Part shown: piece by piece, positions 10,205 to 40,236 of the stretch | How the letters are laid out: each line of letters starts with the position of its first letter | Position numbering within the stretch: position 1 is the stretch's first letter | NCBI RefSeq assembly: GCF_001677475.2 | Contig: NZ_CP015229.1 | Strand: one strand, 5' to 3' | DNA: 64,000 nt | DNA from: Escherichia coli | GTDB lineage: Bacteria > Pseudomonadota > Gammaproteobacteria > Enterobacterales > Enterobacteriaceae | The notes under the pieces: generated by a model | What the model was told of the DNA's origin: nothing | Databases searched by the model: none | What the model saw: the letters and a program-made list of their open reading frames with translations, nothing else | Made by a program: the position numbers and the translations under genes

Positions 10205-12367
10205 ATGGACGTTTCTTACCTGCTCGACAGCCTTAATGACAAACAGCGCGAAGCGGTGGCCGCGCCACGCAGCAACCTTCTGGTGCTGGCGGGCGCGGGC
10301 AGTGGTAAGACGCGCGTACTGGTGCATCGTATCGCCTGGCTGATGAGCGTGGAAAACTGCTCGCCATACTCGATTATGGCGGTAACGTTTACCAACAAAG
10401 CGGCGGCAGAGATGCGTCATCGTATTGGGCAGCTGATGGGCACCAGCCAGGGCGGCATGTGGGTCGGCACCTTCCACGGGCTGGCGCACCGTCTGCTGCG
10501 TGCGCACCATATGGACGCCAATCTGCCGCAGGATTTTCAGATCCTCGACAGCGAGGACCAGCTACGCCTGCTCAAACGCCTAATCAAGGCGATGAACCTC
10601 GACGAGAAGCAGTGGCCGCCGCGCCAGGCAATGTGGTACATCAACAGCCAGAAAGATGAAGGCCTGCGTCCACATCATATTCAAAGCTACGGTAATCCGG
10701 TGGAGCAGACCTGGCAGAAGGTGTATCAGGCGTATCAGGAAGCGTGTGACCGCGCGGGCCTGGTGGACTTCGCCGAGCTGCTGCTACGTGCTCACGAGTT
10801 GTGGCTTAACAAGCCGCATATCCTTCAGCACTATCGCGAACGGTTTACCAATATCCTGGTGGACGAATTCCAGGATACCAACAACATTCAATACGCGTGG
10901 ATCCGCCTGCTGGCGGGCGATACCGGCAAAGTGATGATCGTTGGCGATGACGATCAGTCAATCTACGGCTGGCGCGGAGCGCAGGTGGAGAATATTCAGC
11001 GTTTCCTCAATGATTTCCCCGGTGCTGAAACTATCCGTCTGGAGCAGAACTACCGCTCTACCAGCAATATTCTGAGCGCCGCGAACGCCCTGATTGAAAA
11101 CAACAACGGGCGTTTGGGTAAAAAACTGTGGACCGATGGCGCGGACGGTGAGCCTATTTCCCTCTATTGCGCTTTTAACGAACTCGACGAAGCGCGTTTT
11201 GTGGTTAACCGTATCAAGACCTGGCAGGACAACGGTGGGGCGCTTGCCGAGTGCGCCATTCTCTACCGCAGCAACGCCCAGTCGCGTGTACTGGAAGAGG
11301 CCTTATTACAGGCGAGTATGCCGTACCGTATTTACGGCGGGATGCGCTTCTTCGAACGCCAGGAAATCAAAGATGCGCTCTCGTATCTGCGCCTGATTGC
11401 CAACCGTAACGACGACGCGGCCTTTGAGCGTGTGGTGAATACGCCAACGCGGGGTATTGGTGACCGGACGCTGGACGTGGTACGTCAGACATCGCGCGAT
11501 CGCCAGTTAACACTCTGGCAGGCATGTCGTGAACTGTTGCAGGAAAAAGCCCTCGCCGGACGTGCTGCCAGTGCCTTGCAACGGTTTATGGAACTGATCG
11601 ACGCCTTAGCGCAGGAAACTGCCGATATGCCGCTGCATGTACAGACTGACCGGGTCATTAAAGACTCCGGCCTGCGCACCATGTACGAGCAGGAGAAGGG
11701 CGAAAAAGGCCAGACGCGTATCGAAAACTTAGAGGAACTGGTGACGGCGACGCGCCAGTTCAGCTACAACGAAGAAGACGAAGATTTAATGCCGCTGCAG
11801 GCGTTCCTCTCCCATGCGGCACTGGAAGCAGGTGAAGGGCAGGCGGATACCTGGCAGGATGCGGTGCAGTTGATGACGCTACACTCGGCGAAAGGTCTGG
11901 AGTTCCCGCAGGTGTTTATCGTCGGTATGGAAGAGGGCATGTTCCCAAGCCAGATGTCGCTGGATGAAGGCGGACGTCTGGAAGAAGAACGCCGTCTGGC
12001 CTACGTTGGCGTAACCCGCGCGATGCAGAAACTGACGCTGACCTACGCGGAAACCCGCCGTCTGTATGGCAAAGAAGTTTACCATCGCCCGTCGCGCTTT
12101 ATCGGCGAGCTGCCGGAAGAGTGTGTGGAAGAGGTGCGCCTGCGCGCCACGGTAAGCCGCCCGGTCAGCCATCAACGGATGGGTACGCCGATGGTCGAGA
12201 ACGACAGCGGCTACAAGCTCGGCCAGCGCGTACGCCACGCTAAGTTTGGTGAAGGCACCATCGTCAATATGGAAGGCAGTGGCGAGCATAGCCGTTTGCA
12301 GGTGGCATTCCAGGGCCAGGGTATTAAATGGCTGGTGGCGGCTTACGCCCGGTTGGAGACGGTGTGA
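10205..12367 (+). CDS. uvrD: DNA helicase II (UvrD)
   Basis: ORF 10019-12367; start at internal Met (MDVSYLLDSLNDKQREAVAAP...) gives 720 aa; Walker A GAGSGKT. Confidence 0.95.
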   Translation: MDVSYLLDSLNDKQREAVAAPRSNLLVLAGAGSGKTRVLVHRIAWLMSVENCSPYSIMAVTFTNKAAAEMRHRIGQLMGTSQGGMWVGTFHGLAHRLLRAHHMDANLPQDFQILDSEDQLRLLKRLIKAMNLDEKQWPPRQAMWYINSQKDEGLRPHHIQSYGNPVEQTWQKVYQAYQEACDRAGLVDFAELLLRAHELWLNKPHILQHYRERFTNILVDEFQDTNNIQYAWIRLLAGDTGKVMIVGDDDQSIYGWRGAQVENIQRFLNDFPGAETIRLEQNYRSTSNILSAANALIENNNGRLGKKLWTDGADGEPISLYCAFNELDEARFVVNRIKTWQDNGGALAECAILYRSNAQSRVLEEALLQASMPYRIYGGMRFFERQEIKDALSYLRLIANRNDDAAFERVVNTPTRGIGDRTLDVVRQTSRDRQLTLWQACRELLQEKALAGRAASALQRFMELIDALAQETADMPLHVQTDRVIKDSGLRTMYEQEKGEKGQTRIENLEELVTATRQFSYNEEDEDLMPLQAFLSHAALEAGEGQADTWQDAVQLMTLHSAKGLEFPQVFIVGMEEGMFPSQMSLDEGGRLEEERRLAYVGVTRAMQKLTLTYAETRRLYGKEVYHRPSRFIGELPEECVEEVRLRATVSRPVSHQRMGTPMVENDSGYKLGQRVRHAKFGEGTIVNMEGSGEHSRLQVAFQGQGIKWLVAAYARLETV

Positions 12368-28297: not shown

Positions 28298-28334
28298 TGA
28301 ATATTAACGAGTCACTGTAAATTGCAGTACGATA

Positions 28335-28365
28335 ATGGCTTCCAGCACTGGAAGCCATTTTGCTA
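28335..28365 (+). terminator. metE rho-independent terminator
   Basis: Hairpin ATGGCTTCC-AGCACT-GGAAGCCAT followed by TTT. Confidence 0.6.
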
Positions 28366-28390
28366 TGTGTGCTGGGTATTAAAAGGATTC

Positions 28391-29287
28391 TCAGGAACAG
28401 AAAATTAATTGCGGATTTCTTAAATATTCCATGCACCACTGGCAGGCTTTGCCCATACCATCGGAACGAGCGGCAAGAAATAACTTGGTGGCGTGTTTAT
28501 GTTCGCGCATTGGCTTTTTAAGCAATTTACCGCTGTTTAATAATGGCAATGCCAGATGATGTGGAATATAGCCAATACCGACGTTTTGTTCTATTAAGGC
28601 GATTGCCGTAGCGAAGTCAGGAACAAAAATGGGTTTTTGTCCTTCCAACAGCCAGGCTTGCATCGGGGGAAAGTTAACGGAGGTATCGCGGATACAAACC
28701 GCCGGATAATGACGCAATTCACTGTTTTCTAATGGATGCCGCTTCGCTGCCAGTGGGTGGAGTGGGCTGACGACAAAATCCCATTCCATTTGTCCGATCG
28801 GTTCGCTAATGATGCCTTCACTGCTTGGCACTGCATGAGGAGCACCGTAGACCAGATCGGCACGCTTACTGTACAGAGCATCCCAGCAGCCGTTGTATAC
28901 CTCAAGATCAACCGTCAGCGTTGTTGATGTGAATTGCCGTTCAAAATCTCGAATAAATGCCACCAGCAAATCACCAGGAATAATATTGTTCACCGCAATT
29001 GTTAGTTCACGCTCAATACCATCGTGAATCAGCACTGTGTTGCGCTTTAATGCTTCCAGGTCGCCAAGAATAGTTTTGCTATGTTCGATGAAGTAACTCC
29101 CCGCCGGAGATAATTCAATATAGCGTCCCTTACGAATGAACAGTTCAACGCCCAGGCTCTCTTCCGCTTTCTTGATGGTGTAACTGATGGCGGAAGGGAC
29201 TTTATTTAACTGCTCGGCTGCGGTGGTAATGCTCTGGTGTCTGGCGACCAGATGAATAACACGAAGCGTTTCGTCTGAGATGAACAT
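28391..29287 (-). CDS. LysR-family transcriptional regulator (island)
   Basis: 298-aa ORF; N-terminal HTH LVARHQSITTAAEQLNKVPSAISYTIKKAEESLGVELFIR. Confidence 0.85.
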   Translation of the reverse strand: MFISDETLRVIHLVARHQSITTAAEQLNKVPSAISYTIKKAEESLGVELFIRKGRYIELSPAGSYFIEHSKTILGDLEALKRNTVLIHDGIERELTIAVNNIIPGDLLVAFIRDFERQFTSTTLTVDLEVYNGCWDALYSKRADLVYGAPHAVPSSEGIISEPIGQMEWDFVVSPLHPLAAKRHPLENSELRHYPAVCIRDTSVNFPPMQAWLLEGQKPIFVPDFATAIALIEQNVGIGYIPHHLALPLLNSGKLLKKPMREHKHATKLFLAARSDGMGKACQWCMEYLRNPQLIFCS

Positions 29288-29364
29288 AAGGCTCCCTGGT
29301 CAGTGGTAAAGTGGCTGAATCTCTCCAGATTCAGCCGTAATCATTGCTTGAGTATACTCAGGAA

Positions 29365-30588
29365 TTAGCGGCGTTGACTTGCCCGACTGAGAATCGCATA
29401 CGCGATACATGCCACCAGAATCGAGTCTACCGAAGGGATCGTCGTCAGGGTGAATAAGCCTTTGACGGTCATAAAGCCAACCGCTGCGCCTATGATCCAT
29501 GCCGCGAATGTCAGCACTTTAATCTGTGACTCCTGGGCTAACACTGACTCTTGATAGCCATTACGGCGATAAAGGAAAAAGTCAGCGATATAAATTCCGG
29601 CAACGGGTGGCGTGGCGATACCGAGGAACAGCAGAAACGGAATAAACCACGCCATAATATCCAGACTGCCTACGATGGCGGAAAGGATACCCAGCGCCAC
29701 GGTAATCTGCCATTTTGGAAAGCGGGTAAGCAGTGTGGAAACCACCAGCGTGCCCTGGAACATATTGCCCGCGTTACCGGTGACGCAGGCGAAAATCAAC
29801 AACAGCGCCGCGGGCAGAACCGCACCGAATACCGCCATAGCACCCAGTAAAGATCCCTGACCACTAATGGCGCTCGGCGTTGCACCCGCCCAGTAGAGCA
29901 GAGGGTAGGCAACCAGAAACGTCACGCTTGCGGCAATCAGCGCATGTTTGCGGTTATGCACAAAACTACCGAAATCAGGCAGTGTGGCAACCAGCACAAT
30001 AATGGTGCCAACAACGGTGGAAACGGCGACACCCGTATTCATCTCCACAATCGCCGCTGGTGCTGTCACTTCGGTATGGGTTGCCACATAGAGGATGTAA
30101 CACAGCACCAGCGCGATAACCGGCACGGCAACCTGGGCAATTTTTCCCAGAACGGCAAAACCAAATGCCGTAGAGGCGATAAAAATGACACAGCCAGCCG
30201 CCACTAACAGTGCTAGTGGAACTTCCAGTCCATGTTGAGCCAGTAAGTCATGTACCGAATGACCAAACATATTGGCGGTAACGGCAATCCAGCCGAACAG
30301 ACTTATCGCCATCAAAATGTTAATGGCGATGGCCCCTTTTTCGCCAAACGAATATTTCACAATGCCATACGTTGGCAGGCGGGCTTTTTCTCCCACGCTA
30401 ATAGTGATGGCTGAAAGTAAGGTCAGAATGACGCCGCCTAACAATACGACGCTAATTAAACTGCCGCTGGAAAGTTGATTGCCGAGGCTTGAGGATGACA
30501 ACAGCACAGGTGTGACGGCAATACCCAACAAAATCATGGCAATACGCAATCCTGATGCCGTATTCAGACTCTCTTCTTTTTTACGCAT
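29365..30588 (-). CDS. NCS1-family (CodB-like purine/cytosine-type) permease (island)
   Basis: 407-aa polytopic membrane ORF; CodB-like segments incl. GIYIADFFLYRRNGY. Confidence 0.8.
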   Translation of the reverse strand: MRKKEESLNTASGLRIAMILLGIAVTPVLLSSSSLGNQLSSGSLISVVLLGGVILTLLSAITISVGEKARLPTYGIVKYSFGEKGAIAINILMAISLFGWIAVTANMFGHSVHDLLAQHGLEVPLALLVAAGCVIFIASTAFGFAVLGKIAQVAVPVIALVLCYILYVATHTEVTAPAAIVEMNTGVAVSTVVGTIIVLVATLPDFGSFVHNRKHALIAASVTFLVAYPLLYWAGATPSAISGQGSLLGAMAVFGAVLPAALLLIFACVTGNAGNMFQGTLVVSTLLTRFPKWQITVALGILSAIVGSLDIMAWFIPFLLFLGIATPPVAGIYIADFFLYRRNGYQESVLAQESQIKVLTFAAWIIGAAVGFMTVKGLFTLTTIPSVDSILVACIAYAILSRASQRR

Positions 30589-30613
30589 AGTATGTTCCCT
30601 TTAAAAATGCGCG

Positions 30614-31003
30614 TTACACAGTATGAAAATGCCCGGTGTATTTGCGCCAGCTACCCAGTTCTGTAATTTCCCGTTGGCCTTCTGTGAGCCAGTTTTCAGC
30701 CAGTACACCGAGCACTTCGCTACCATCGGCAAGTTTGATTTTGCCTATTGCCAGCCCGGCAGGTTCGCTCATTAACAGAGCGGCAAAACTGGCCAGCGGT
30801 AGTTGCCAAATTTCTACGTCGACGTGTGTTCCACCTTCATTCACGCGAATCATTCCTGGATGGCGATCGTTAATACTCCACAGCCGGTAATGGGCGTCAG
30901 TTCTGTCTTCACGGACAAAAATGCCGCCCGCTTTTTGCATATTTGGGTTAAGTTCCAGGCCGCGCATCAGTGTTCCGTTAACGGCTAAAAGCGTTGTAGT
31001 CAT
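30614..31003 (-). CDS. Small protein resembling the allophanate hydrolase C-terminal (GGCT-like) domain (island)
   Basis: 129-aa ORF; LLAVNGTLMRGLELN...EIWQLPLASFAALLMSEPAGLAIGKIKLADGSEVLGVLAE pattern; recognised from memory of the domain, not searched. Confidence 0.5.
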   Translation of the reverse strand: MTTTLLAVNGTLMRGLELNPNMQKAGGIFVREDRTDAHYRLWSINDRHPGMIRVNEGGTHVDVEIWQLPLASFAALLMSEPAGLAIGKIKLADGSEVLGVLAENWLTEGQREITELGSWRKYTGHFHTV

Positions 31004-31019
31004 TATGTTCTCCAGAAAA

Positions 31020-31976
31020 TTAAAGGGTTATCCATGTACCGCTCTGATGCGCCAGGGCCGCTTTTATGGTTTGCGGTGAGGTAATCAGGCCGCTGGCCTG
31101 TTTGCCTTGTTGCTGGCTGGTATTGATGAAATCAACAATGGCTTCCACTTTGGGTTGCATACTGCCGACACCAAATTGACCTTCCCGCAACAGTGTTTGC
31201 GCTTCGGCAACGCTAATGGCGTCGAGCCACTGTTGTTGTGGTGTACCAAAGTTAATCGCCACTTTTTCTACTCCGGTGGGTATCACCAGCAGATCCGCAC
31301 CTAACTGACTGGCGAGCAGCGCGGAGGCCAGATCTTTATCGATCACGGCTTCCACACCTTTCAGTTGTTGCCCGTCTCGCACCACCGGAATGCCGCCGCC
31401 GCCGCAGGCAATAACCAGATATCCCTGTCGCACCAGATGAGCGATGGTGTTGTGTTCAATAATTTCCAGTGGCGCAGGAGAGGGAACCGTACGCCGCCAC
31501 CCGCGCCCGGCATCCTCCATCAGAGTCCAGCCGAGCTGCTGCTGGCGTTGTTGGGCCGTTGCTTCATCGAGAAACGCGCCAATCGGTTTACTGGGGCTGG
31601 CGAAAGCATCGTCATGTGGGCTAACTCGCGTTTGTGTCACTAGCGCAATTACCGGTTTGTTTATGCCACGGCGAGCGAGTTCGTTATGCAGCGCCTTCTG
31701 GAACATGTAGCCAATTGCGCCTTGTGTATCACCCACGGCGTAATCAAGCGGAACCGGAGAAACTTCGTTACAAGCAAGTTCAGAGCGACGCAGAATAAAG
31801 CCCACCTGCGGTCCATTACCGTGGGTTAGCACCAGATCCCATCCGGCTTCAACCATATCAACGATATGCTGCACGCTTTCCATCACTGCAACATATTGAT
31901 CGGGAATACTATTGTGTTGATCGTCTTGAATGAGCGCATTGCCGCCAACCGCGACAACAGCCAGTGGCTTAACCAT
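31020..31976 (-). CDS. Carbamate kinase (island)
   Basis: ORF 31020-32306; start at internal MVKPLAVVAVGGNAL (318 aa) overlapping the upstream gene stop by 8 nt; amino-acid-kinase fold motifs. Confidence 0.85.
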   Translation of the reverse strand: MVKPLAVVAVGGNALIQDDQHNSIPDQYVAVMESVQHIVDMVEAGWDLVLTHGNGPQVGFILRRSELACNEVSPVPLDYAVGDTQGAIGYMFQKALHNELARRGINKPVIALVTQTRVSPHDDAFASPSKPIGAFLDEATAQQRQQQLGWTLMEDAGRGWRRTVPSPAPLEIIEHNTIAHLVRQGYLVIACGGGGIPVVRDGQQLKGVEAVIDKDLASALLASQLGADLLVIPTGVEKVAINFGTPQQQWLDAISVAEAQTLLREGQFGVGSMQPKVEAIVDFINTSQQQGKQASGLITSPQTIKAALAHQSGTWITL

Positions 31977-33393
31977 GATGATTCTCCTTTGCGACGATCT
32001 CAGCCAGTGCACGTATAGCGGCGACAAAACAGGCCATCGGCGCAGTGGTGATCCCGGCACCAATTTGCCCGACTCCCGCTTGTTTGTGGGCGATACCCGT
32101 ATTGATGACCGGTAAAATGCCGCGATCGGTAACTTTACGCGCATCAATCCCTGCTGCGGTGGGGGCAAAATTGAGGGCAGGAAGTGTAAATGCGGGGTTA
32201 CCGCCGAGGGTGATTGCCTGCATCCGACGGCTGTTATTGGTGGCATCGGCAGGTGTGCCTCCCACAAATTTAACGATTGCCGGAGATGACGCCATCGCGA
32301 AGCCACCTACACCAGCGGTTTCGGTAATTGCGCTATCGCCCAAGTCAGCAGCGGCGTCGTCAACGCCAAATCCAGGGAAGAACAGACCTTCAACTGCATT
32401 GGCGGGAGCCTGGAACCAGCGATCGCCAGTACCGGAAAGCCGAATACCAAAATTCACCCCGTTACGCGCCATCACCGTAACCATTGAACTGAACGGTACA
32501 TTGGCGGCGGCATCCATCATTGCTTTACAGGCAGCCATCGACAGATTGAGGAAGAAGTGATCGTTACCGGTGATAAATGCTACGACGCGCTGGATATGTT
32601 CCTGTGGAAGAGAGCGGGCCAGCAATGCCGGGATCAGACGCTTAATCAGCAAACCGGTAGCGGCAGCATTGCGGTTATGAACTTCATCCCCCATATGTAG
32701 CGCCTGCGCCATTAATGGCTTGAGTTCCAGCTCGCCGTGTTGTGCGATTGCTGCTTTCATTGCCGGAGCCAGTTCATCGCGCATCCAGGCCAGACGATTG
32801 AGAACTTCGTCGTTATTGGCGCCAAAACGGAGAACCTTACCCAGACCTTCATTGAAATTACTAAAAGTACGATGACCGTTGGTTTTATTTTCCACCACCC
32901 ATAACGGCATTGACGGGCTGATGATGCCTGCCATTGGTCCAACCGCGTGATAATGATGACAAGGGGCAAGGTCGATTTCGCCTGCGTTTATCTGGTTTTC
33001 TGCGTCTTGCTGGCTGGTGGCCCAACCTTCGTACAGCATGGCACCAATAATCGCCCCTTTTACCGGACCACACATCTCTTCCCAGGTAATCGGCGGGCCA
33101 GAGTGCAAAATACGTTTTTGTTCAGCCATTGCTGGAATGGCCTCTTTAGCGAGCATGACATCCACCAGCACGGGCTGTGCTTCGAGATAACGTGTCATGG
33201 CGATTTGGTTGGCATTTTCTACCAGTGGATGACGTAGCAACGATGCCAGATCCAATCCAGCGTCAATATCGCCTTGTGCTGGTGGCTGCCAGTTGAGTGC
33301 AATTGCGCTTCCCCCGGCATGTTGAATATTGTCAGCAAAACTGTGTAGTCCCGCGTTCACGACCTTCAAAGACTGATTAAATAAGGTATTCAT
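31969..33393 (-). CDS. DUF1116 protein, YahG/YlbE-like (island)
   Basis: ORF 31969-33444; start at MNTLFNQSLKVVNAG (474 aa) forms ATGA overlap with FdrA-like stop. Confidence 0.8.
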   Translation of the reverse strand: MNTLFNQSLKVVNAGLHSFADNIQHAGGSAIALNWQPPAQGDIDAGLDLASLLRHPLVENANQIAMTRYLEAQPVLVDVMLAKEAIPAMAEQKRILHSGPPITWEEMCGPVKGAIIGAMLYEGWATSQQDAENQINAGEIDLAPCHHYHAVGPMAGIISPSMPLWVVENKTNGHRTFSNFNEGLGKVLRFGANNDEVLNRLAWMRDELAPAMKAAIAQHGELELKPLMAQALHMGDEVHNRNAAATGLLIKRLIPALLARSLPQEHIQRVVAFITGNDHFFLNLSMAACKAMMDAAANVPFSSMVTVMARNGVNFGIRLSGTGDRWFQAPANAVEGLFFPGFGVDDAAADLGDSAITETAGVGGFAMASSPAIVKFVGGTPADATNNSRRMQAITLGGNPAFTLPALNFAPTAAGIDARKVTDRGILPVINTGIAHKQAGVGQIGAGITTAPMACFVAAIRALAEIVAKENHHG

Positions 33394-34949
33394 GCGTTTA
33401 GCCCCTTTTTCTGCAACTGAGTCTGTGCAACGGTGCTGGCCCATAGCGCCGCCTGTGCATTGCTGCTGGCGATGATGACCCCTGCATTTTGTAGTGCGCT
33501 TATCTGCTGGCTGCGTATTTGCGGATCAGCTTCCGTTCCGCAAACGTGCGCAATCAGCAACGGTGCGTTATTCATGTCGATGTGTGAAAGTTGGTCCAGT
33601 AATTCGCTGGCAGGCGTCGTGGAAGCGCCATAACCAAGTACCAGGTCGAATAACACGACGGCAGTGTGTGAGTCGTTGAGTTCGTTGAGCAGACGTTGAT
33701 TGCGCAGAGTCGGATCGATCATTGGATGCGGTTTGCCACGGGTGAAATCATCGTCGCCCATATCGATCAACGTGTGATCTTCGCTTTGCCAGATATTTGC
33801 CAGAGCACGATTACCCGCAACTGGCGTATTGGAAGCTGCGCTGAATCCCTTTTGTTGGCAGATAAGTTGCGCTTCGTAGCAGAAGGTTCCTCCGGCGAAA
33901 ACACCGCGTATCGCCTGGCGATGGGCTGGCAGGCGCTGGCAGGCGTTTTGTAACATTGTGAGATCGTCGCAGGGTACATCGGTTTCGACAGCCGGAAATG
34001 GCTGAGCATTCAGTAACGCCACAGCGATGTCGGCGGCGCTGGCAAGTGTGGTGGCGGCAGTGATATTGGGACGTGCCAGATCATGCGGATTCGCCCCGAG
34101 GAAATTCACCACCACGGGTTTTCCACAAGCCTCGGCGCGCTCCAGAATAGTCCGGGCAACGATCGGTGAAGGCGGTTTTGAAATAAGCACAATCACGCGA
34201 GTTTCATCGTCTTGCGCCAGCGCATCTAAAGCGAAGAGCATCGATATTCCACTAATCTCTTCACTGAGATCATGTCCGCCTGTTCCCAACGCCTGAGAAA
34301 TACCCGCTCCGAGCTGGTCGATTCGGCAAGTCACTTCCTGTAGCCCGGTGCCTGACGCGCCAATAACACCAATCGCTCCACGTTTCACCACATTGGCGAA
34401 GCCTAACGGAATGCCGTTAACGATGGCGGTTCCACAGTCAGGTCCCATTACGATGCGCTGACGTTCTCGGGCAAGTGTTTTGATGGATTTTTCCTGCGCG
34501 ATACTGACGTTATCGCTGAACATCATCACGTTCATTCCGAGGTTTAACGCTTTAATTGCTTCGGCGGCGGCGTAGTCTCCCGGTACAGAAATGAGTGCCA
34601 GGTTGGCTTCGGGTTCGGCTTCCAGTGCCATTTCCAGGCTGACCTTTTCCGGTGTTTTAATGCCACTACCCGTTTCATCATCGGGTTTGCTGGTCAGACG
34701 TTGCTGGGCCAGTACCAGTGCTTCATTGCAAATATCTTCTTCACCCATGACTGCAATCACTAAATCATTGGGACTGGCGTTGATTTCGTTACCCAGACCC
34801 ACATCGCGCAATTGTTCGAGATTATTGGGTGTTCCCATGACGACCGAAGCCTGTTGAATACCGGGCAATTTGCTGATTTGCGCGGAAATCTGCATCAGAG
34901 AAACCGAGTCCTGATAAAGATTGCTGAGAACTTTATGTTTAACTTTCAT
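33390..34949 (-). CDS. FdrA/YahF-like protein (succinyl-CoA-synthetase-alpha-like CoA-binding fold) (island)
   Basis: 519-aa ORF; GxGxxG-type glycine-rich segments VIGASGTGLQEV, LGTGGHDL. Confidence 0.8.
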   Translation of the reverse strand: MKVKHKVLSNLYQDSVSLMQISAQISKLPGIQQASVVMGTPNNLEQLRDVGLGNEINASPNDLVIAVMGEEDICNEALVLAQQRLTSKPDDETGSGIKTPEKVSLEMALEAEPEANLALISVPGDYAAAEAIKALNLGMNVMMFSDNVSIAQEKSIKTLARERQRIVMGPDCGTAIVNGIPLGFANVVKRGAIGVIGASGTGLQEVTCRIDQLGAGISQALGTGGHDLSEEISGISMLFALDALAQDDETRVIVLISKPPSPIVARTILERAEACGKPVVVNFLGANPHDLARPNITAATTLASAADIAVALLNAQPFPAVETDVPCDDLTMLQNACQRLPAHRQAIRGVFAGGTFCYEAQLICQQKGFSAASNTPVAGNRALANIWQSEDHTLIDMGDDDFTRGKPHPMIDPTLRNQRLLNELNDSHTAVVLFDLVLGYGASTTPASELLDQLSHIDMNNAPLLIAHVCGTEADPQIRSQQISALQNAGVIIASSNAQAALWASTVAQTQLQKKGLNA

Positions 34950-35043
34950 GCTGTTACGCCTGTTTCATTCCGCCCGATAGTAAAATTCGGGCAAAGCATC
35001 CCCGTGTAGCGCCATAAATGAGCTACAGGAGAAAAGGTTGAAA

Positions 35044-35904
35044 TCAATTCATGGTGTTCAGGGTTCGAAAGCCATGCAGCATTCCTGCAAGGCAATCCAC
35101 TCCTGACGTTGCGCCAAATTGCATGACCTGTTCTGCACAGGATGCGATTGTCATTGCCGATGCGCCCCCAACCAGTTGTGCGAGTAACTGGCAAATCGGT
35201 TCTGAAAAATGCCCCCGAAGCGCACGCTCCAGATAATGACGACTGATGTCAGTGGTGTTGTGCGCATGTTGATCAATTGCCTGCTGCAACCGGTATTGAT
35301 GAGCGGCAAGTGGTGCAGGTAGTTGCCATAACCAGAGCGCTGCCAGATAGCCCAACAAATAGTCATCTCCATCGGGAGTTAAGCCTTTGCCAAAGCCGAT
35401 CAGTTGTGGCACCTGGCGTTCCAGCGCATCTGGATGTTCCATAATCTCTAATCCCTGGTGCGTGAGACTATCCGGCAGGTGCAATGTGCTTTGAACGTTA
35501 TGCTCCAGACAAAATAAAAGCCGTTGCGATGCCATCGTTGGGTAGTGCTGGAAAACCAAAGGGAACGCCTCAAGTGTCAGCCTTCCTCCCACAAATGACG
35601 GCTGCCAGAGCGTTGCGTTATCGAGAGCCACACAAAAGCGAGGTGTCTGCAGCAAGCCTGGGGTTAACTGAACGGGATCGGAATGGGCAATCTCTCTTCG
35701 CCAGTCCCAACGCTTAGGCAGCCAGACTCTGGCAGCATCAGGGAGATTCAGATACGTTTGCGCACACAACAGGGTGATGAATGTTCCCGCTTCTGAATAC
35801 AGATTTACCGCATGTTTAAAAGCACTGTGCAGACGTAAATCTTGCGTTTCATTCCACGGGAAAAGATATCCCAACGACGATGCGCAAAGCGTAACCTGTA
35901 CCAT
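35044..35904 (-). CDS. DUF2877 protein, YahE/YlbF-like (island)
   Basis: 286-aa ORF located where yahE/ylbF sit relative to FdrA-like genes; 5-nt gap to upstream gene. Confidence 0.65.
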   Translation of the reverse strand: MVQVTLCASSLGYLFPWNETQDLRLHSAFKHAVNLYSEAGTFITLLCAQTYLNLPDAARVWLPKRWDWRREIAHSDPVQLTPGLLQTPRFCVALDNATLWQPSFVGGRLTLEAFPLVFQHYPTMASQRLLFCLEHNVQSTLHLPDSLTHQGLEIMEHPDALERQVPQLIGFGKGLTPDGDDYLLGYLAALWLWQLPAPLAAHQYRLQQAIDQHAHNTTDISRHYLERALRGHFSEPICQLLAQLVGGASAMTIASCAEQVMQFGATSGVDCLAGMLHGFRTLNTMN

Positions 35905-35909
35905 CGGTG

Positions 35910-36578
35910 TTAGCCTTCCAGGCCTGCAATAATGGCTTTGGAATCAGTAACCCAACCGAAAATGGCACCTTGTGCTTTGATCATCTCCAGGGCGTATTTC
36001 TGGAATTCCGGGAAATAGGAGCCAACGCAATCTTCCGGGATGATGCACTCATAACCACGATCATTCGCTTCGCGCACGGTGGTGGTCACACAGACTTCCG
36101 TGGTTACTCCGCAAACAATCAGCGTTTTGATGCCGTGGTTTTGCAAAATCAGATGTAAGTCGGTTTGATAAAAAGCGCCTTTGCCGGGTTTATCAATCAC
36201 CGGTTCGCCTGCGACCGGGTACAGTTCAGGAATGATGTCATGACCTGCTTCACCTCTGACCAGAATGCGCCCCATCGGGCCTGCTTCACCAATAAAGGTT
36301 TTACCGCCGCGCGTCAGTTTGGCTGGTGGGCAGTCGCTTAAGTCTGCACGATGGCCTTCACGGGTATGAATAACCATAATTCCTTTTTGACGTGCGGCTG
36401 CCAGCACCTCTGTACATGGAGCGATAGCCGTGCGTACCAGTGAAACATCATTGCCCAGTGCCTCACCGAAGCCCCCTGCTTCGACAAAGTCACGCTGCAT
36501 GTCGATCATGACCAGTGCAGTTGTGCGCGGATCAAAAGGTAATTCAAAGGGTTGAGCCTGAAAAATGGATTGCGTCAT
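35910..36578 (-). CDS. Isochorismatase-family cysteine amidohydrolase (island, first gene of operon)
   Basis: 222-aa ORF; LVMIDMQRDF, conserved Cys in LIVCGVTTEVCV; good SD GGAGA upstream. Confidence 0.8.
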   Translation of the reverse strand: MTQSIFQAQPFELPFDPRTTALVMIDMQRDFVEAGGFGEALGNDVSLVRTAIAPCTEVLAAARQKGIMVIHTREGHRADLSDCPPAKLTRGGKTFIGEAGPMGRILVRGEAGHDIIPELYPVAGEPVIDKPGKGAFYQTDLHLILQNHGIKTLIVCGVTTEVCVTTTVREANDRGYECIIPEDCVGSYFPEFQKYALEMIKAQGAIFGWVTDSKAIIAGLEG

Positions 36579-36665
36579 GGTAAATCTCCTGTCTGATGTT
36601 TAAACGATCCAGTTGTTCTGAGAACGAGTATTCAGGAGAAAAGCGGCACAAAACAGGAAAAAAGT

Positions 36666-36772
36666 TTGCCGCACAGCAACGAAATTTTTGCATTCAGCAG
36701 GCGGCGTGATGACGAATGTGAAGGGGGTCAAATCGTGGCATACAGCAACAAAATTTTTGATGCTGTATGGTT
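36666..36772. promoter_or_regulatory. Island operon promoter/operator region with two copies of a palindromic motif (ACAGCAAC-R-AAATTTTTG) 70 bp apart
   Basis: Direct reading: copies at ~36673-36692 and ~36743-36762; second copy within 9-bp inverted repeat CATACAGCA-N13-TGCTGTATG. Confidence 0.4.
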
Positions 36773-36835
36773 TTGAGTTTAAAAAAATCGTTGAAATTGT
36801 GTGAGCTTAAGCACCTGAGTTAGCTGCTATGGTGG

Positions 36836-37645
36836 TTATTTTTTAACACCATACTGCTTAAACCACTCCAGCATACGCTGCCAGCCATCTTTTGCAGATG
36901 CGGCATGATAGCTCGGGCGATAATCAGCGTTGAATGCATGCCCGGCGTCCGGGTACACGATAATCTCTGCTTTCGCATTAGCAGCCCGCAGCGCCTGGCG
37001 CATGGTTTCAACGCTCTCCTGCGGAATGCTGTTATCCTGACCACCATATAAGCCGAGAACCGGCGCGTTAAGATCGGTTGCGATATCAACAGGTTGTTTC
37101 GGTGAATTCAGCGACTTATCGCCTGTCAGTTTGCCGTACCATGCCACCGCCGCTTTCAGTTGCGGGTTATGCGCAGCATACAGCCAGGTGATACGTCCAC
37201 CCCAGCAGAATCCGGTGATCATTAAACGATGAACATCGCCGCCGTTGCGGGAAGCCCAACTGGCGACATGATCGAGATCGGCCAGCACCTGCGAGTCAGG
37301 CACTTTTGCTACCAGACCGCTAAGCAACGTGGGGATATCGGCAAAATCATTCGGATCGCCTTCGCGGAAGTAAAGTTCAGGTGCGATAGCCAGATATCCC
37401 TCCAGCGCCAGACGGCGACAAATGTCGCGGATATGTTCATGCACGCCAAAAATTTCCTGCACTACAATGACCACTGGCAGTGGGCCATCGCTTTGCTTTG
37501 GTCTGGCATGGTAAGCAGGCATGTTATCCCCTTGTGAGGGGATAGAGGTGAAGCCCGCCGCAATCGCGTCGTCCGGGGTCTGAACGATGGTCGAAGCGAG
37601 AGGCGATGCAGCAGGTGCAAATCCAGATTGTTGTGTTGTTGCCAT
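36836..37645 (-). CDS. ysgA: Dienelactone hydrolase-family protein YsgA
   Basis: ORF 36836-37711; start at MATTQQSGF; alpha/beta hydrolase. Confidence 0.85.
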   Translation of the reverse strand: MATTQQSGFAPAASPLASTIVQTPDDAIAAGFTSIPSQGDNMPAYHARPKQSDGPLPVVIVVQEIFGVHEHIRDICRRLALEGYLAIAPELYFREGDPNDFADIPTLLSGLVAKVPDSQVLADLDHVASWASRNGGDVHRLMITGFCWGGRITWLYAAHNPQLKAAVAWYGKLTGDKSLNSPKQPVDIATDLNAPVLGLYGGQDNSIPQESVETMRQALRAANAKAEIIVYPDAGHAFNADYRPSYHAASAKDGWQRMLEWFKQYGVKK

Positions 37646-37763: not shown

Positions 37764-37840
37764 TATGTGATTTGCATCACTTTTGGTGGGTAAATTTATG
37801 CAACGCATTTGCGTCATGGTGATGAGTATCACGAAAAAAT
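37764..37840 (+). promoter_or_regulatory. udp promoter with CRP (and CytR) binding sites
   Basis: TGTGATTTGCATCAC near 37766-37780 and GGTGATGAGTATCACG near 37817-37838 match CRP consensus. Confidence 0.55.
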
Positions 37841-37906
37841 GTTAAACCCTTCGGTAAAGTGTCTTTTTGCTTCTTCTGACTAAACCGATTCACAGAGGAG
37901 TTGTAT

Positions 37907-38668
37907 ATGTCCAAGTCTGATGTTTTTCATCTCGGCCTCACTAAAAACGATTTACAAGGGGCTACGCTTGCCATCGTCCCTGGCGACCCGGATCGTGTGG
38001 AAAAGATCGCCGCGCTGATGGATAAGCCGGTTAAGCTGGCATCTCACCGCGAATTCACCACCTGGCGTGCAGAGCTGGATGGTAAACCTGTTATCGTCTG
38101 CTCTACCGGTATCGGCGGCCCGTCTACCTCTATTGCTGTTGAAGAGCTGGCACAGCTGGGCATTCGCACCTTCCTGCGTATCGGTACAACGGGCGCTATT
38201 CAGCCGCATATTAATGTGGGTGATGTCCTGGTTACCACGGCGTCTGTCCGTCTGGATGGCGCGAGCCTGCACTTCGCACCGCTGGAATTCCCGGCTGTCG
38301 CTGATTTCGAATGTACGACTGCGCTGGTTGAGGCTGCGAAATCCATCGGCGCGACGACTCACGTTGGCGTGACGGCTTCTTCTGATACCTTCTACCCAGG
38401 TCAGGAACGTTACGATACTTACTCTGGTCGCGTAGTTCGTCACTTTAAAGGTTCTATGGAAGAGTGGCAGGCGATGGGCGTAATGAACTATGAAATGGAA
38501 TCTGCAACCCTGCTGACCATGTGTGCAAGTCAGGGTCTACGTGCCGGTATGGTAGCGGGTGTTATCGTTAACCGCACCCAGCAAGAGATCCCGAATGCTG
38601 AGACGATGAAACAAACTGAAAGCCAAGCGGTGAAAATCGTGGTGGAAGCGGCGCGTCGTCTGCTGTAA
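37907..38668 (+). CDS. udp: Uridine phosphorylase
   Basis: ORF 37901-38668; start at [11 protein letters not shown] gives 253 aa. Confidence 0.9.
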
Positions 38669-38808
38669 TCCTCTTCTCCTGTCTGAAGGCCGACGCGTTC
38701 GGCCTTTTGTATTTTTGCGTAGCGCCTCGCAGGAAATGCCTTTCCAACTGGACGTTTGTACAGCACAATTCTATTTTGTGCGGGTAAGTTGTTGCGTCAG
38801 GAGGCGTT

Positions 38809-40236
38809 GTGGATTTCTCAATCATGGTTTACGCAGTTATTGCGTTGGTGGGTGTGGCAATTGGCTGGCTGTTTGCCAGTTATCAACATGCGCAGCAAAA
38901 AGCCGAGCAATTAGCTGAACGTGAAGAGATGGTCGCGGAGTTAAGCGCGGCAAAACAACAAATTACCCAAAGTGAGCACTGGCGCGCTGAGTGCGAGTTA
39001 CTCAATAACGAAGTGCGCAGCCTGCAAAGTATTAACACCTCTCTGGAGGCCGATCTGCGTGAAGTAACCACGCGGATGGAAGCCGCACAGCAACATGCTG
39101 ACGATAAAATTCGCCAGATGATTAACAGCGAGCAGCGCCTCAGTGAGCAGTTTGAAAACCTCGCCAACCGTATTTTTGAGCACAGCAATCGCCGGGTTGA
39201 TGAGCAAAACCGTCAGAGTCTGAACAGCCTGTTGTCGCCGCTACGTGAACAACTGGACGGTTTCCGCCGTCAGGTTCAGGACAGCTTCGGTAAAGAAGCA
39301 CAAGAACGCCATACCCTGACCCACGAAATTCGCAATCTCCAGCAACTCAACGCGCAAATGGCCCAGGAGGCGATCAACCTGACGCGCGCGCTGAAAGGCG
39401 ACAATAAAACTCAGGGCAACTGGGGCGAGGTAGTATTGACGCGGGTGCTGGAGGCTTCCGGTCTGCGTGAAGGGTATGAATATGAAACCCAGGTCAGCAT
39501 CGAAAATGACGCCCGCTCGCGGATGCAGCCGGATGTCATCGTGCGGCTGCCGCAGGGAAAAGATGTGGTGATCGACGCCAAAATGACGCTGGTCGCCTAT
39601 GAACGCTATTTTAACGCCGATGACGACTACACCCGCGAAAGCGCGCTACAGGAACATATCGCGTCGGTGCGTAACCATATCCGTTTGCTGGGACGCAAAG
39701 ATTATCAACAGCTGCCGGGGCTGCGAACCCTGGATTACGTGCTGATGTTTATTCCCGTTGAACCCGCTTTTTTACTGGCGCTTGACCGCCAGCCGGAGCT
39801 GATCACCGAAGCGTTGAAAAACAATATCATGCTGGTTAGCCCGACCACGCTGCTGGTGGCGCTGCGCACTATCGCCAACCTCTGGCGCTATGAGCATCAA
39901 AGTCGTAACGCCCAGAAAATAGCCGATCACGCCAGCAAGCTGTACGACAAGATGCGTTTGTTCGTCGATGACATGTCAGCGATTGGTCAAAGTCTCGACA
40001 AAGCGCAGGATAACTACCGCCAGGCAATGAAAAAACTCTCTTCAGGTCGCGGAAATGTGCTGGCGCAGGCAGAAGCGTTCCGCGGTTTAGGAGTAGAAAT
40101 TAAACGCGAGATTAATCCGGATTTGGCTGAACAGGCGGTGAGCCAGGATGAAGAGTATCGACTTCGGTCGGTTCCGGAGCAGCCGAATGATGAAGCTTAT
40201 CAACGCGATGATGAATATAATCAGCAGTCGCGCTAG
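38809..40236 (+). CDS. rmuC: DNA recombination protein RmuC
   Basis: 475-aa ORF with N-terminal TM helix and long coiled coil. Confidence 0.9.
   Translation: MDFSIMVYAVIALVGVAIGWLFASYQHAQQKAEQLAEREEMVAELSAAKQQITQSEHWRAECELLNNEVRSLQSINTSLEADLREVTTRMEAAQQHADDKIRQMINSEQRLSEQFENLANRIFEHSNRRVDEQNRQSLNSLLSPLREQLDGFRRQVQDSFGKEAQERHTLTHEIRNLQQLNAQMAQEAINLTRALKGDNKTQGNWGEVVLTRVLEASGLREGYEYETQVSIENDARSRMQPDVIVRLPQGKDVVIDAKMTLVAYERYFNADDDYTRESALQEHIASVRNHIRLLGRKDYQQLPGLRTLDYVLMFIPVEPAFLLALDRQPELITEALKNNIMLVSPTTLLVALRTIANLWRYEHQSRNAQKIADHASKLYDKMRLFVDDMSAIGQSLDKAQDNYRQAMKKLSSGRGNVLAQAEAFRGLGVEIKREINPDLAEQAVSQDEEYRLRSVPEQPNDEAYQRDDEYNQQSR

What the first reader, a model, noticed from the sequence alone, without database searches (positions are those of the whole stretch)
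36666..36772. Duplicated palindromic motif in the island promoter region (candidate operator pair, 70-bp spacing)
In the 257-bp region upstream of the first island gene there are two copies of a near-identical 18-20-nt core: ACAGCAACGAAATTTTTG at ~36673 and ACAGCAACAAAATTTTTG at ~36743. The second copy is embedded in a perfect 9-bp inverted repeat (CATACAGCA-N13-TGCTGTATG) and the first in a degenerate version. A spacing of exactly 70 bp (about seven helical turns) is typical of paired regulator sites that loop or bind cooperatively. The only regulator in the island is the LysR protein at the distal end, so these may be its operators, or sites for an unlinked regulator.
Basis: seen in the sequence. 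Interest (0 to 1): 0.5.

Follow-up and report, generated by a model that had tools for sequence, protein, structure and literature searches.

The report
Paired LysR-type operators, island promoter
The two repeats are real and are most likely binding sites for the island's own PunR-like LysR regulator, set in an otherwise ordinary activator-dependent promoter that also carries CRP-like sites; binding itself has not been shown.

Summary
The repeats exist: 36673-36690 and 36742-36759 match 17/18. The spacing is 69 bp, not 70. The distal copy sits in a 31-bp palindrome; the proximal copy is not an inverted repeat. Chance does not explain them (0/2000 shuffles), and they are not a dispersed repeat (one copy per genome in 1499 E. 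coli genomes).

Orthologous operons in about 25 other genera keep both boxes. The conserved part is the inner A/T-rich core (GCATCAAA-N3-TTTGcTGC), not the outer 9-bp arms.

This core matches the validated operator of PunR, the closest characterised relative of the island LysR protein, at 12 of 12 bases. The recognition helix (VPSAISYT) is invariant across the cluster-linked regulators. Boxes co-occur with a linked regulator: 36/47 loci with one, 2/33 without.

The proximal box lies 51-52 bp upstream of a conserved -10 (about -65). A conserved ABS-like block follows it, and the -35 is poor. A CRP-like site lies between the boxes.

Box spacing across taxa falls in classes of about 70, 80 and 101 bp, which differ by whole helical turns.

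Verdict: a new member of a known kind. No binding data exist.

The parts
36674..36694 (-). Proximal box. It is the candidate recognition site (RBS) of the LysR-type regulator, centred at 36684/5, about -65 from the inferred start.
   Evidence: Scores 21.4 bits with a matrix built only from non-Escherichia orthologous boxes, second best in the 64 kb. Columns TGCAAA..TT.G..GCT are invariant or nearly so in 12 Enterobacterales. The distance from box centre to the -10 is 51-52 bp in the Enterobacterales loci where a -10 was found, apart from one at 56 bp.
36739..36769 (.). It is the candidate upstream high-affinity site for the same regulator, at about -134.
   Evidence: 15-nt arms with one mismatch. 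Scores 28.3 and 25.4 bits on the two strands, above all 50 null sequences. The core CA-TCAA-N5-TTG is invariant in 12 Enterobacterales. The 12-bp core CAAAATTTTTGA is identical to the K-12 PunR operator.
36653..36671 (-). ABS-like conserved block (CGGCAAACTTTTTTCCTGT on the operon strand), about 22 bp downstream of the proximal box centre and overlapping the -35 region.
   Evidence: Columns CG..AAA....TT..CTGT are invariant or nearly so in alignment A3. The same block, CTGCAATTTC.TTCG, follows the box in loci where the regulator gene is divergent. The activation-site function is inferred.
36627..36632 (-). Inferred -10 hexamer AATACT (TATACT in other genera). The transcription start is inferred near 36620.
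   Evidence: TACT is invariant and A209 nearly so in A3. Its distance from the proximal box is fixed. The consensus scan found no sigma-70 promoter on this strand, and by eye the -35 is poor. The start site has not been measured.
36717..36732 (.). CRP-like site 2 (TTTGACCCCCTTCACA on the operon strand) between the two boxes, centred at 36724.5, about -104.5.
   Evidence: 9 of 10 consensus positions. It is one of only two such hits in the 64 kb; the other lies upstream of udp. TCACA is invariant in A3. The site lies 28.5-29.5 bp from the distal box centre in 16 of the 27 loci examined, including two outside the Enterobacterales.
36800..36815 (.). CRP-like site 1 (GGTGCTTAAGCTCACA on the operon strand), 54.5 bp upstream of the distal box centre.
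   Evidence: TCACA is invariant in A3. The site lies 54.5-55.5 bp upstream of the distal box in many taxa. In Shewanella the same position holds a perfect TGTGAGCTAGCTCACA. In the window it is weak, at 8/10.
36777..36793 (-). Far-upstream A/T box CAACGATTTTTTTAAAC, 31-32 bp upstream of the distal box. It may be a second, weak regulator contact paired with the distal box.
   Evidence: The box matrix scores it at 10-18 bits in 12 Enterobacterales loci at a constant 31-32 bp from the distal box. It is semi-conserved in A3. The window copy itself scored below the listing threshold.
29365..36578 (-). The regulated operon. Gene order: BiuH-like cysteine hydrolase, DUF2877, FdrA-like, DUF1116, carbamate kinase, allophanate-hydrolase C-terminal-like protein, NCS1 (cytosine-type) permease.
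   Evidence: ORFs. RefSeq annotation of the same island in E. coli Z1323 and REL606. NCBIfam hits. Synteny in about 50 loci.
28391..29287 (-). The island's LysR-type regulator gene, last in the island and on the same strand. It is the proposed binder of the boxes.
   Evidence: Best NCBIfam models are PunR (287 bits, below the 345 cutoff) and AllS (215 bits). It is 34% and 33% identical to K-12 PunR and AllS. The recognition helix VPSAISYT is conserved in all 47 cluster-linked homologues and in PunR.

Best explanation
The two repeats are operators for the PunR/AllS-like LysR-type regulator encoded at the far end of the island (28391-29287). They lie in the activator-dependent promoter of the island's nitrogen-compound catabolic operon.

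Proposed mechanism:
- One regulator tetramer sits on the proximal box (about -65, recognition site) and on the conserved block just downstream (-51 to -33, activation site). On binding an unknown inducer it recruits RNA polymerase to a promoter with a good -10 (AATACT) and a poor -35.
- The distal palindrome (about -134) is a stronger, symmetric copy of the same site. It probably holds a second regulator molecule, perhaps together with the weak A/T box 31 bp further upstream.
- A CRP-like site lies a fixed 28.5 bp from the distal box. CRP bound there would bend the DNA between the two boxes.
- Across taxa the distal and proximal modules keep the same helical face, which argues that they work together rather than independently.

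Shown here: the sequence conservation, the geometry, the co-occurrence with the regulator gene, and the motif match to PunR.

Inferred: which protein binds, the transcription start, activation versus repression, CRP binding, and any looping.
For: 1. Both boxes are conserved in orthologous upstream regions of Citrobacter, Edwardsiella, Serratia, Rahnella, Buttiauxella, Budvicia, Photobacterium, Motilimonas, Shewanella and others, while the sequence between them diverges.
2. A matrix built only from non-Escherichia boxes picks the two window boxes as the top hits in 64 kb: 28.3 and 21.4 bits, next best 14.2, null maximum mean 15.5.
3. The island regulator's best family models are PunR and then AllS. 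The published, experimentally validated PunR operator has the consensus TsttwTCAAwAwwwTTGaaGGCA, and the E. coli site reads ggtTTCAAAAATTTTGcagg, confirmed by ChIP-exo, fluorescence polarisation and EMSA (PMC8376909). It shares the 12-bp core CAAAATTTTTGA with the distal box.
4. The recognition helix [KR]VPSA[IV]SYT is almost unchanged in all 47 cluster-linked regulators, down to 39% overall identity, and in PunR.
5. Of 47 loci with a linked regulator, 36 have a box of at least 15 bits upstream. Of 33 loci without one, 2 do.
6. Where the regulator gene is divergent (Crenobacter, Craterilacuibacter), the box plus the ABS-like block lie in the shared intergenic region, the classical LysR-type layout.
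7. The proximal box centre lies 51-52 bp upstream of the conserved -10 in almost all Enterobacterales examined (one locus at 56 bp), which puts it at about -65. This is the canonical LysR-type recognition-site position (established knowledge of the family).
8. Box spacings fall into classes averaging 69.6, 80.5 and 101.2 bp. The differences are 10.9, 20.7 and 31.5 bp. All of the length change lies between CRP-like site 2 and the proximal box. Three independent random phases would agree this well with P = 0.004.
9. Differences between Escherichia haplotypes fall in spacer positions of the distal box and of the CRP-like site.
Against: - There is no binding, expression or start-site data for this promoter; everything is comparative.
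- The strict T-N11-A pair is kept on only one side in the window's distal box (ATC-N9-GTT) and in most Enterobacterales (ATC-N9-GCT).
- The regulator gene is not divergent from the promoter here but 7 kb away on the same strand. No box lies upstream of it.
- Two Enterobacterales loci (L010, L018) keep strong boxes with no linked regulator within 10 kb.
- The co-occurrence statistic is confounded by phylogeny and G+C content, and the matrix was trained on regulator-bearing loci.
- The proximal box score (21.4) was exceeded by one of 50 null sequences.
- The three spacing classes amount to only three independent events.
Confidence: 0.7

Rival explanations
1. The boxes are bound mainly by the unlinked chromosomal regulator PunR (YdhB), the purine-nucleoside regulator present in all E. 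coli, rather than by the island regulator. Alternatively both proteins compete for the boxes.
For: The distal box and the validated K-12 PunR operator share an identical 12-bp core. The recognition helices are nearly identical: PSAISYTIKK against PSAVSYTVRQ. Two loci keep the boxes without a linked regulator.
Against: The boxes track the presence of the cluster-linked regulator across taxa, including loci where that gene is divergent from the promoter. The flanks conserved here (GCA...TGC) differ from the PunR consensus flanks (Tsttw...aaGGCA). PunR was reported to be specific for punC in K-12, although K-12 lacks the island.
Confidence: 0.12
2. The distal palindrome acts as an RNA or DNA hairpin. 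It would insulate the island operon from read-through out of ysgA just upstream, or terminate antisense transcripts. The proximal copy would be incidental.
For: The palindrome folds at -14.3 kcal/mol on the operon strand (z -4.2) and -15.7 kcal/mol on the + strand (z -3.5). On the + strand it is followed by GUUUUGAGUUU. It lies 67 nt downstream of the ysgA stop codon.
Against: There is no U-tract on the strand that ysgA and the operon share. The terminator scan did not call it. The outer stem arms are only partly conserved in other genera, while the specific letters of the A/T core are. The Serratia distal boxes are poor palindromes yet keep TCAA..TTG. The box is present whatever gene lies upstream. 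The proximal copy does not fold better than shuffles (z -0.9) yet is equally conserved. No Rfam family matches.
Confidence: 0.05
3. The repeats are sites for a global DNA-bending or nucleoid protein that prefers A/T tracts (IHF, Fis or H-NS), or for a nitrogen regulator such as Nac. On this view the LysR regulator acts elsewhere.
For: The core is an A5T4 tract. The operon looks like nitrogen-compound catabolism. The consensus scan found no sigma-70 promoter on the operon strand.
Against: Conservation is of specific flanking letters (GCATCAA / TTGcTGC), not just A/T richness. By eye there is no ATA-N9-TAT (Nac) or sigma-54 GG-N10-GC pattern on the operon strand. The motif equals a validated LysR-type operator.
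Confidence: 0.05
4. The two copies are a neutral local duplication with no function.
For: The 17/18 identity between the two copies in this genome is higher than either copy needs to fit the cross-species consensus.
Against: Both copies are kept at fixed geometry in genera whose intervening sequence has diverged completely.
Confidence: 0.02

Closest known systems
PunR (YdhB) operator in the punR-punC intergenic region of E. coli K-12 (Rodionova et al. 2021, PMC8376909)
   Same: The regulator is the closest characterised relative of the island LysR protein, with a near-identical recognition helix. The operator core CAAAATTTTTGA is identical to the distal box. It lies upstream of the target promoter and is followed about 21 bp downstream by a weaker half-site-like ATCAAATATT (my reading), as the proximal box here is followed by the ABS-like block.
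   Different: PunR has one 23-bp palindrome in a divergent promoter and controls a single transporter gene. Here there are two boxes 69 bp apart with a CRP-like site between them, the regulator gene is 7 kb away on the same strand, the flanks differ (GCA/TGC against Tsttw/aaGGCA), and the target is a seven-gene catabolic operon. The island regulator scores below the PunR model's cutoff (287 against 345 bits), so it is a paralogue and not PunR.
AllS-dependent allD / allFGHK promoters of the E. coli allantoin regulon (PMC12535856; PMC11326118)
   Same: AllS is the second-closest family model for the island regulator. Its target allFGHK (FdrA, DUF1116, DUF2877, carbamate kinase) is paralogous to the core of this island's operon. 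The AllS site is also far upstream, centred at -181 from the start codon, and acts together with a global regulator, ArcA.
   Different: The AllS site sequence in K-12 (around L083:16500, CTGATTTTTAAAACA by my reading) is not the TCAAA-N-TTTG box. If anything it resembles the far-upstream A/T box here. The global co-regulator there is ArcA; here the conserved extra sites look like CRP sites. The AllS recognition helix differs (TTATISYRIK).
Classical LysR-type promoter layout, with a recognition site near -65 and an activation site near -35, and with extra upstream or internal sites in some systems such as CatR/BenM, CysB and AtzR-atzDEF (from established knowledge of the family, not tested here)
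   Same: The proximal box lies at about -65, with a conserved block over -51 to -33 and a poor -35. AtzR also controls a cyanuric acid / biuret / allophanate pathway, a chemistry close to what the BiuH-like hydrolase suggests.
   Different: The second full site is 69-103 bp upstream and is phase-locked through a CRP-like site. That arrangement is not the standard layout.
CRP plus specific-activator promoters such as araBAD and malK-type class III promoters (from established knowledge, not tested here)
   Same: A CRP-like site lies upstream of the specific activator's promoter-proximal site. Helical-phase-preserving spacing is seen.
   Different: CRP binding here is only inferred from the consensus and its conservation. 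The specific activator belongs to a different family.

Membership tests
LysR-type regulator operator (recognition site plus activation site) | Interrupted dyad containing T-N11-A (for example ATC-N9-GAT) | tested here: inconclusive
   Many orthologous boxes are full ATC-N9-GAT, including Photobacterium, Motilimonas, Shewanella and Edwardsiella. The window's distal box is ATC-N9-GTT and the proximal box is TGC-N9-GTT. The inner dyad TCAA-N7-TTG is intact, but the outer T/A pair is kept on one side only.
LysR-type regulator operator (recognition site plus activation site) | Recognition site near -65 and a second, weaker site overlapping -35 | tested here: met
   This holds relative to an inferred -10, not a mapped start. 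The box centre is 51-52 bp upstream of the conserved AATACT/TATACT in almost all Enterobacterales examined (one at 56 bp). A conserved block lies about 22 bp downstream of the box.
LysR-type regulator operator (recognition site plus activation site) | A cognate LysR-type regulator gene genetically linked to the target | tested here: met
   The regulator gene is the last gene of the island. It is linked in 47 of 80 orthologous loci and tracks the presence of the box. The linkage is not the usual divergent arrangement in Escherichia, but it is divergent in L058, L059 and L069.
LysR-type regulator operator (recognition site plus activation site) | Demonstrated binding of the regulator to the site and an inducer-dependent change | not testable with these tools
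   This needs EMSA, footprinting or ChIP. No paper on this island's regulation was found.
PunR regulon (sites bound by PunR/YdhB itself) | Match to the 23-bp PunR consensus TsttwTCAAwAwwwTTGaaGGCA | tested here: inconclusive
   The core TCAAAAATTTTG matches fully in the distal box. The flanks do not: the box has CAGCA...TTGCTG where the consensus has Tsttw...aaGGCA.
PunR regulon (sites bound by PunR/YdhB itself) | The regulator is PunR, scoring above the equivalog cutoff | tested here: not met
   The island regulator scores 287 bits against NF008294, whose cutoff is 345, and is 34% identical to K-12 PunR. It is a paralogue.
CRP-dependent promoter | TGTGA-N6-TCACA site at a helically phased position upstream of the start | tested here: inconclusive
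   The site at 36717-36732 matches 9/10 and its TCACA half is invariant across genera. More distant loci carry perfect sites in the upstream region. Its position of about -104.5 depends on an inferred start. Binding was not tested.
Dispersed repetitive element (REP/BIME/MITE-like) | Many copies per genome | tested here: not met
   There is one place per genome in 1499 E. coli genomes and no other copy in the 64-kb window.
Intrinsic terminator | G+C-rich stem followed by a U-tract on the transcribed strand | tested here: not met
   The stem is stable, but it is A/U-rich inside and lacks a U-tract on the ysgA/operon strand. The terminator scan did not report it.
Known RNA family (riboswitch, leader or sRNA) in the 5' region | Rfam covariance-model hit at the gathering score | tested here: not met
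   Only two hits were found, at 19-20 bits against gathering scores of 49-50. Both are unrelated families.

The most novel reading that the evidence does not exclude
The promoter may be built as a fixed nucleoprotein assembly that has not been described for LysR-type regulators. Two regulator tetramers would sit head to head: the far-upstream A/T box with the distal box, and the proximal box with the activation site. A CRP-induced bend locked 28.5 bp from the distal box would bridge them. The link to the proximal module would tolerate only whole-turn insertions (about 70, 80 or 101 bp). This assembly would control a widespread, still uncharacterised ureide/biuret-type catabolic operon that includes a paralogue of oxamic transcarbamylase.
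Probability: 0.25. Interest if true: 0.45.

Novelty: new member of a known kind. Interest (0 to 1): 0.3.

Why it matters
- The island is carried by about 28% of complete E. coli genomes, including the laboratory strains REL606 and BL21. It is also present across Proteobacteria, yet I found no functional study of it.
- Its genes suggest breakdown of a carbamoyl- or ureido-type nitrogen compound: a BiuH-like hydrolase, an AllFGH-like transcarbamylase paralogue, a carbamate kinase and an NCS1 permease.
- Knowing the likely operators, the likely regulator and the likely CRP input gives a direct experimental handle. A promoter fusion plus the regulator can be used to screen for the inducer, and so for the substrate of the pathway.
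- The identical core shared with the PunR operator raises a testable question. How do two paralogous LysR-type regulators in one cell avoid, or exploit, cross-talk?
- As regulatory biology the finding is otherwise conventional.

Tried and rejected
- Orphaned metE/ysgA terminator. I considered whether the distal palindrome was the K-12 metE/ysgA terminator left behind by island insertion. Rejected: K-12 has a different 39-bp hairpin there, and the whole 257-bp region is island DNA.
- Tandem duplication. I considered a duplication of a roughly 69-bp module (CRP site plus box). Rejected: the CRP-like sites are 83 bp apart and sit at different distances from their boxes.
- Sigma-54 promoter. By eye there is no GG-N10-GC match on the operon strand.
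- Sigma-70 consensus scan. It found nothing on the operon strand, which fits activator dependence.
- Terminator scan. It flagged only a 5-bp stem at 36680-36668, at chance level (1 found against 0.5 expected). I disregarded it.
- LexA, ArgR, MetR, Nac and NtrC consensus comparisons by eye. None fits, and the positions they would need are not the conserved ones.
- Rfam scan. It found nothing relevant.
- Autoregulatory box upstream of the regulator gene. None scored above 10 bits.
- Literature. Searches for DUF1116/DUF2877 and allFGH found only a genome-comparison paper that lists the island as region GR 29 of strain BEN2908, with no functional data.
- Whole-genome search for further boxes. I did not attempt it, because only 50-kb pieces of genomes can be read with these tools.

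Full report
**1. The observation**

The region 36579-36835 is the 257-bp gap between the start of a minus-strand gene (36578->35910) and the stop of ysgA (36836).

Two 18-mers are present:
- 36673-36690, ACAGCAACGAAATTTTTG
- 36742-36759, ACAGCAACAAAATTTTTG

They differ at one base. Their start-to-start spacing is 69 bp, not 70.

The distal copy lies in the perfect 9-bp inverted repeat CATACAGCA-N13-TGCTGTATG. This extends to a 31-bp palindrome (36739-36769) with 15-nt arms and one mismatch, centred on 36754.

The proximal copy carries only one arm plus the A/T core. In register its other side does not pair (my reading). "Degenerate version" is therefore too generous.

The repeat is not a chance event:
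- No further copy occurs in the 64 kb even with 3 mismatches. About 0.2 are expected, and 0/100 shuffles reach 3.
- 0 of 2000 Markov shuffles of the 257 bp contain such a repeat.

**2. Context**

The window is Escherichia. E. coli E69 is almost identical here.

The repeats lie inside an 8.5-kb island inserted between metE and ysgA:
- K-12 has only 39 bp with a hairpin at that place.
- 1499 of 5426 complete E. coli genomes carry the island, always once. REL606 and BL21 are among them.

All island genes are on the minus strand. In order they are:
1. a BiuH-like cysteine hydrolase
2. DUF2877
3. FdrA-like
4. DUF1116
5. carbamate kinase
6. a protein like the C-terminal domain of allophanate hydrolase
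7. an NCS1 permease
8. a LysR-type regulator (28391-29287)

The FdrA/DUF1116/DUF2877/carbamate-kinase core is paralogous to allFGHK, which encodes oxamic transcarbamylase plus carbamate kinase. I found no functional study of the island. One paper lists it as region GR 29 of strain BEN2908.

**3. Phylogenetic footprinting**

One scan of species-representative genomes with the hydrolase gave 80 orthologous loci, most with the same gene order.

In Citrobacter, Edwardsiella, Serratia, Rahnella, Buttiauxella, Budvicia, Limnobaculum and others, both boxes are kept while the sequence between them diverges.

The conserved part is the inner core, roughly GCATCAAA-N3-TTTGcTGC:
- Invariant columns in the distal box: CA-TCAA-N5-TTG.
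- Invariant or nearly invariant columns in the proximal box: TGCAAA-N4-TT-G--GCT.
- The outer CATACAGCA arms are mostly lineage-specific.

A matrix built only from non-Escherichia boxes scores the window's distal box at 28.3 bits and the proximal box at 21.4. The next best hit in 64 kb is 14.2. Null sequences reach a maximum of 15.5 on average and 22.8 at most.

Differences between Escherichia haplotypes fall in the central spacer of the distal box and in the spacer of the CRP-like site.

**4. Who binds**

- The island regulator's best family models are PunR (287 bits, cutoff 345) and AllS (215 bits). It is 34% and 33% identical to the K-12 proteins.
- PunR has a published operator validated by ChIP-exo, fluorescence polarisation and EMSA. 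The consensus is TsttwTCAAwAwwwTTGaaGGCA, and the probe read ...ggtttcaaaaattttgcagg... (PMC8376909).
- In K-12 that operator reads CTGCCTGCAAAATTTTTGAAACC. It shares the 12-bp core CAAAATTTTTGA with the distal box.
- The recognition helix [KR]VPSA[IV]SYT is almost unchanged in all 47 cluster-linked regulators, down to 39% overall identity, and in PunR. AllS differs. This explains why the box core is conserved so widely.
- Of 47 loci with a linked regulator, 36 have a box of at least 15 bits within 350 bp upstream of the hydrolase. Of 33 loci without one, 2 do. This count is confounded by phylogeny and base composition.
- In Crenobacter and Craterilacuibacter the regulator gene is divergent. 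There the box plus a downstream block CTGCAATTTC.TTCG sit in the shared intergenic region, the classical LysR-type arrangement.

**5. Promoter anatomy**

Window coordinates; positions are relative to an inferred start near 36620.

| Element | Coordinates | Position | Note |
|---|---|---|---|
| -10 hexamer AATACT | 36632-36627 | -12 to -7 | TACT invariant |
| ABS-like block CGGCAAACTTTTTTCCTGT | 36671-36653 | -51 to -33 | conserved |
| Proximal box | centre 36684/5 | about -65 | 51-52 bp upstream of the -10 in almost all Enterobacterales examined (one at 56 bp) |
| CRP-like site 2, TTTGACCCCCTTCACA | 36717-36732 | centre about -104.5 | 9/10 consensus positions |
| Distal palindrome | centre 36754 | about -134 | |
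| Weak A/T box CAACGATTTTTTTAAAC | 36777-36793 | | 31-32 bp beyond the distal box |
| CRP-like site 1 | 36800-36815 | | 54.5 bp beyond the distal box |

No sigma-70 consensus promoter was called on this strand, and by eye the -35 is poor. That fits activator dependence.

The only other CRP-consensus hit with at most one mismatch in the 64 kb lies upstream of udp. From memory, udp is a known CRP target.

More distant orthologous loci carry perfect CRP palindromes in the upstream region: Shewanella and Thorsellia, and Avibacterium by my reading.

**6. Spacing**

- The distance from the distal box to CRP-like site 2 is fixed at 28.5-29.5 bp.
- All length variation lies between CRP-like site 2 and the proximal box: 40.5-41.5, 51.5-52.5 or 71.5 bp.
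- Box-to-box spacing therefore falls into classes averaging 69.6 (n=14), 80.5 (n=6) and 101.2 bp (n=6). The classes differ by 10.9, 20.7 and 31.5 bp, which are whole helical turns.
- Three independent random phases would agree this well with P = 0.004.
- This supports a face-of-the-helix relationship between the modules.

**7. Rivals**

- PunR cross-binding is a real possibility, given the identical core, the similar helix, and two loci that keep boxes without a linked regulator.
- A hairpin or terminator role is unlikely:
  - The palindrome folds well (z -3.5 and -4.2), but there is no U-tract on the ysgA/operon strand.
  - The terminator scan did not call it.
  - Specific letters are conserved rather than pairing.
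  - The equally conserved proximal copy does not fold (z -0.9).
- No Rfam family matches.
- A dispersed-repeat origin is excluded.
- Neutral duplication is excluded by the conservation.

**8. Verdict**

The feature is real. The details need correction:
- the spacing
- which part of the repeat matters
- the status of the proximal copy
- the likely recognition-site/activation-site pairing
- the CRP-like sites

It is a new member of a known kind of system: a PunR/AllS-subfamily LysR-type promoter. Interest is modest. Its main value is as a handle on an uncharacterised, widespread catabolic island, and as a case of two paralogous regulators that share an operator core. Nothing about binding, the start site or the inducer has been measured.

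Noticed in passing
window 37766-37781: TGTGATTTGCATCACT is the only other CRP-consensus hit (at most 1 mismatch) in the 64 kb. It lies about 120 bp upstream of udp (37901-38668, +). This fits udp's known CRP control (from memory) and serves as a positive control for the scan.
   Followed up: partly
window 28298-28390 and 36836-36850; L002:5316-5354: The island junctions fall inside the last codons of ysgA and right at the metE stop. K-12's 39-bp metE/ysgA spacer, with its bidirectional hairpin ACCGGGTGG..CCACCCGGT, is replaced. A new hairpin aatggcttccagcactggaagccatttt (about 28336-28362) follows metE in the window.
   Followed up: partly
L001:14305-19742; L085:11626-17065; window 38669-38808: E. 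coli Z1323 and REL606 carry a second island between udp and rmuC: a tripartite tricarboxylate transporter, dgoK/dgoA-like genes and an IclR regulator. The window lacks it; there the rmuC-sized ORF 38809-40236 follows udp directly.
   Followed up: no
L001:9311-10551 and 11512-12179: In E. coli Z1323 the island's FdrA-like gene and its cysteine hydrolase are annotated as frameshifted pseudogenes. The island is decaying in some strains.
   Followed up: no
L005 (CACSKA010000007.1): A contig labelled Chryseobacterium sp. 18061 carries the full enterobacterial island. Its Buttiauxella-like upstream region is nearly identical in its boxes to L017. This is probably a contaminant or mislabelled contig.
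   Followed up: no
window 29288-29364 (minus strand): Between the permease and the regulator gene lies a hairpin ggctgaatctggagagattcagcc (29336-29313). A TATACT sits just inside the permease 3' end. No regulator box is present. The regulator gene may have its own weak promoter, may be read through from the operon, or both.
   Followed up: partly
L083:16490-16510 compared with window 36777-36793: The K-12 AllS site upstream of allF is centred at -181 (PMC12535856) and reads about CTGATTTTTAAAACA. It resembles the far-upstream A/T box CAACGATTTTTTTAAAC rather than the main boxes. The resemblance was not tested.
   Followed up: no
loci L003-L082: The hydrolase is unusually conserved: 81-92% amino-acid identity across Enterobacterales, Vibrionales and Burkholderiales, and 68-73% in Mycobacteria and Chloroflexi. 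Its neighbour DUF2877 drops to 25-60%. The whole cluster recurs across phyla, which suggests horizontal spread of a complete pathway. The hydrolase scores 279 bits against the BiuH model, below its cutoff of 370.
   Followed up: partly
L010 and L018: Serratia microhaemolytica and Budvicia aquatica keep strong boxes (18.7 and 28.5 bits). No homologue of the regulator lies within 10 kb on either side.
   Followed up: no
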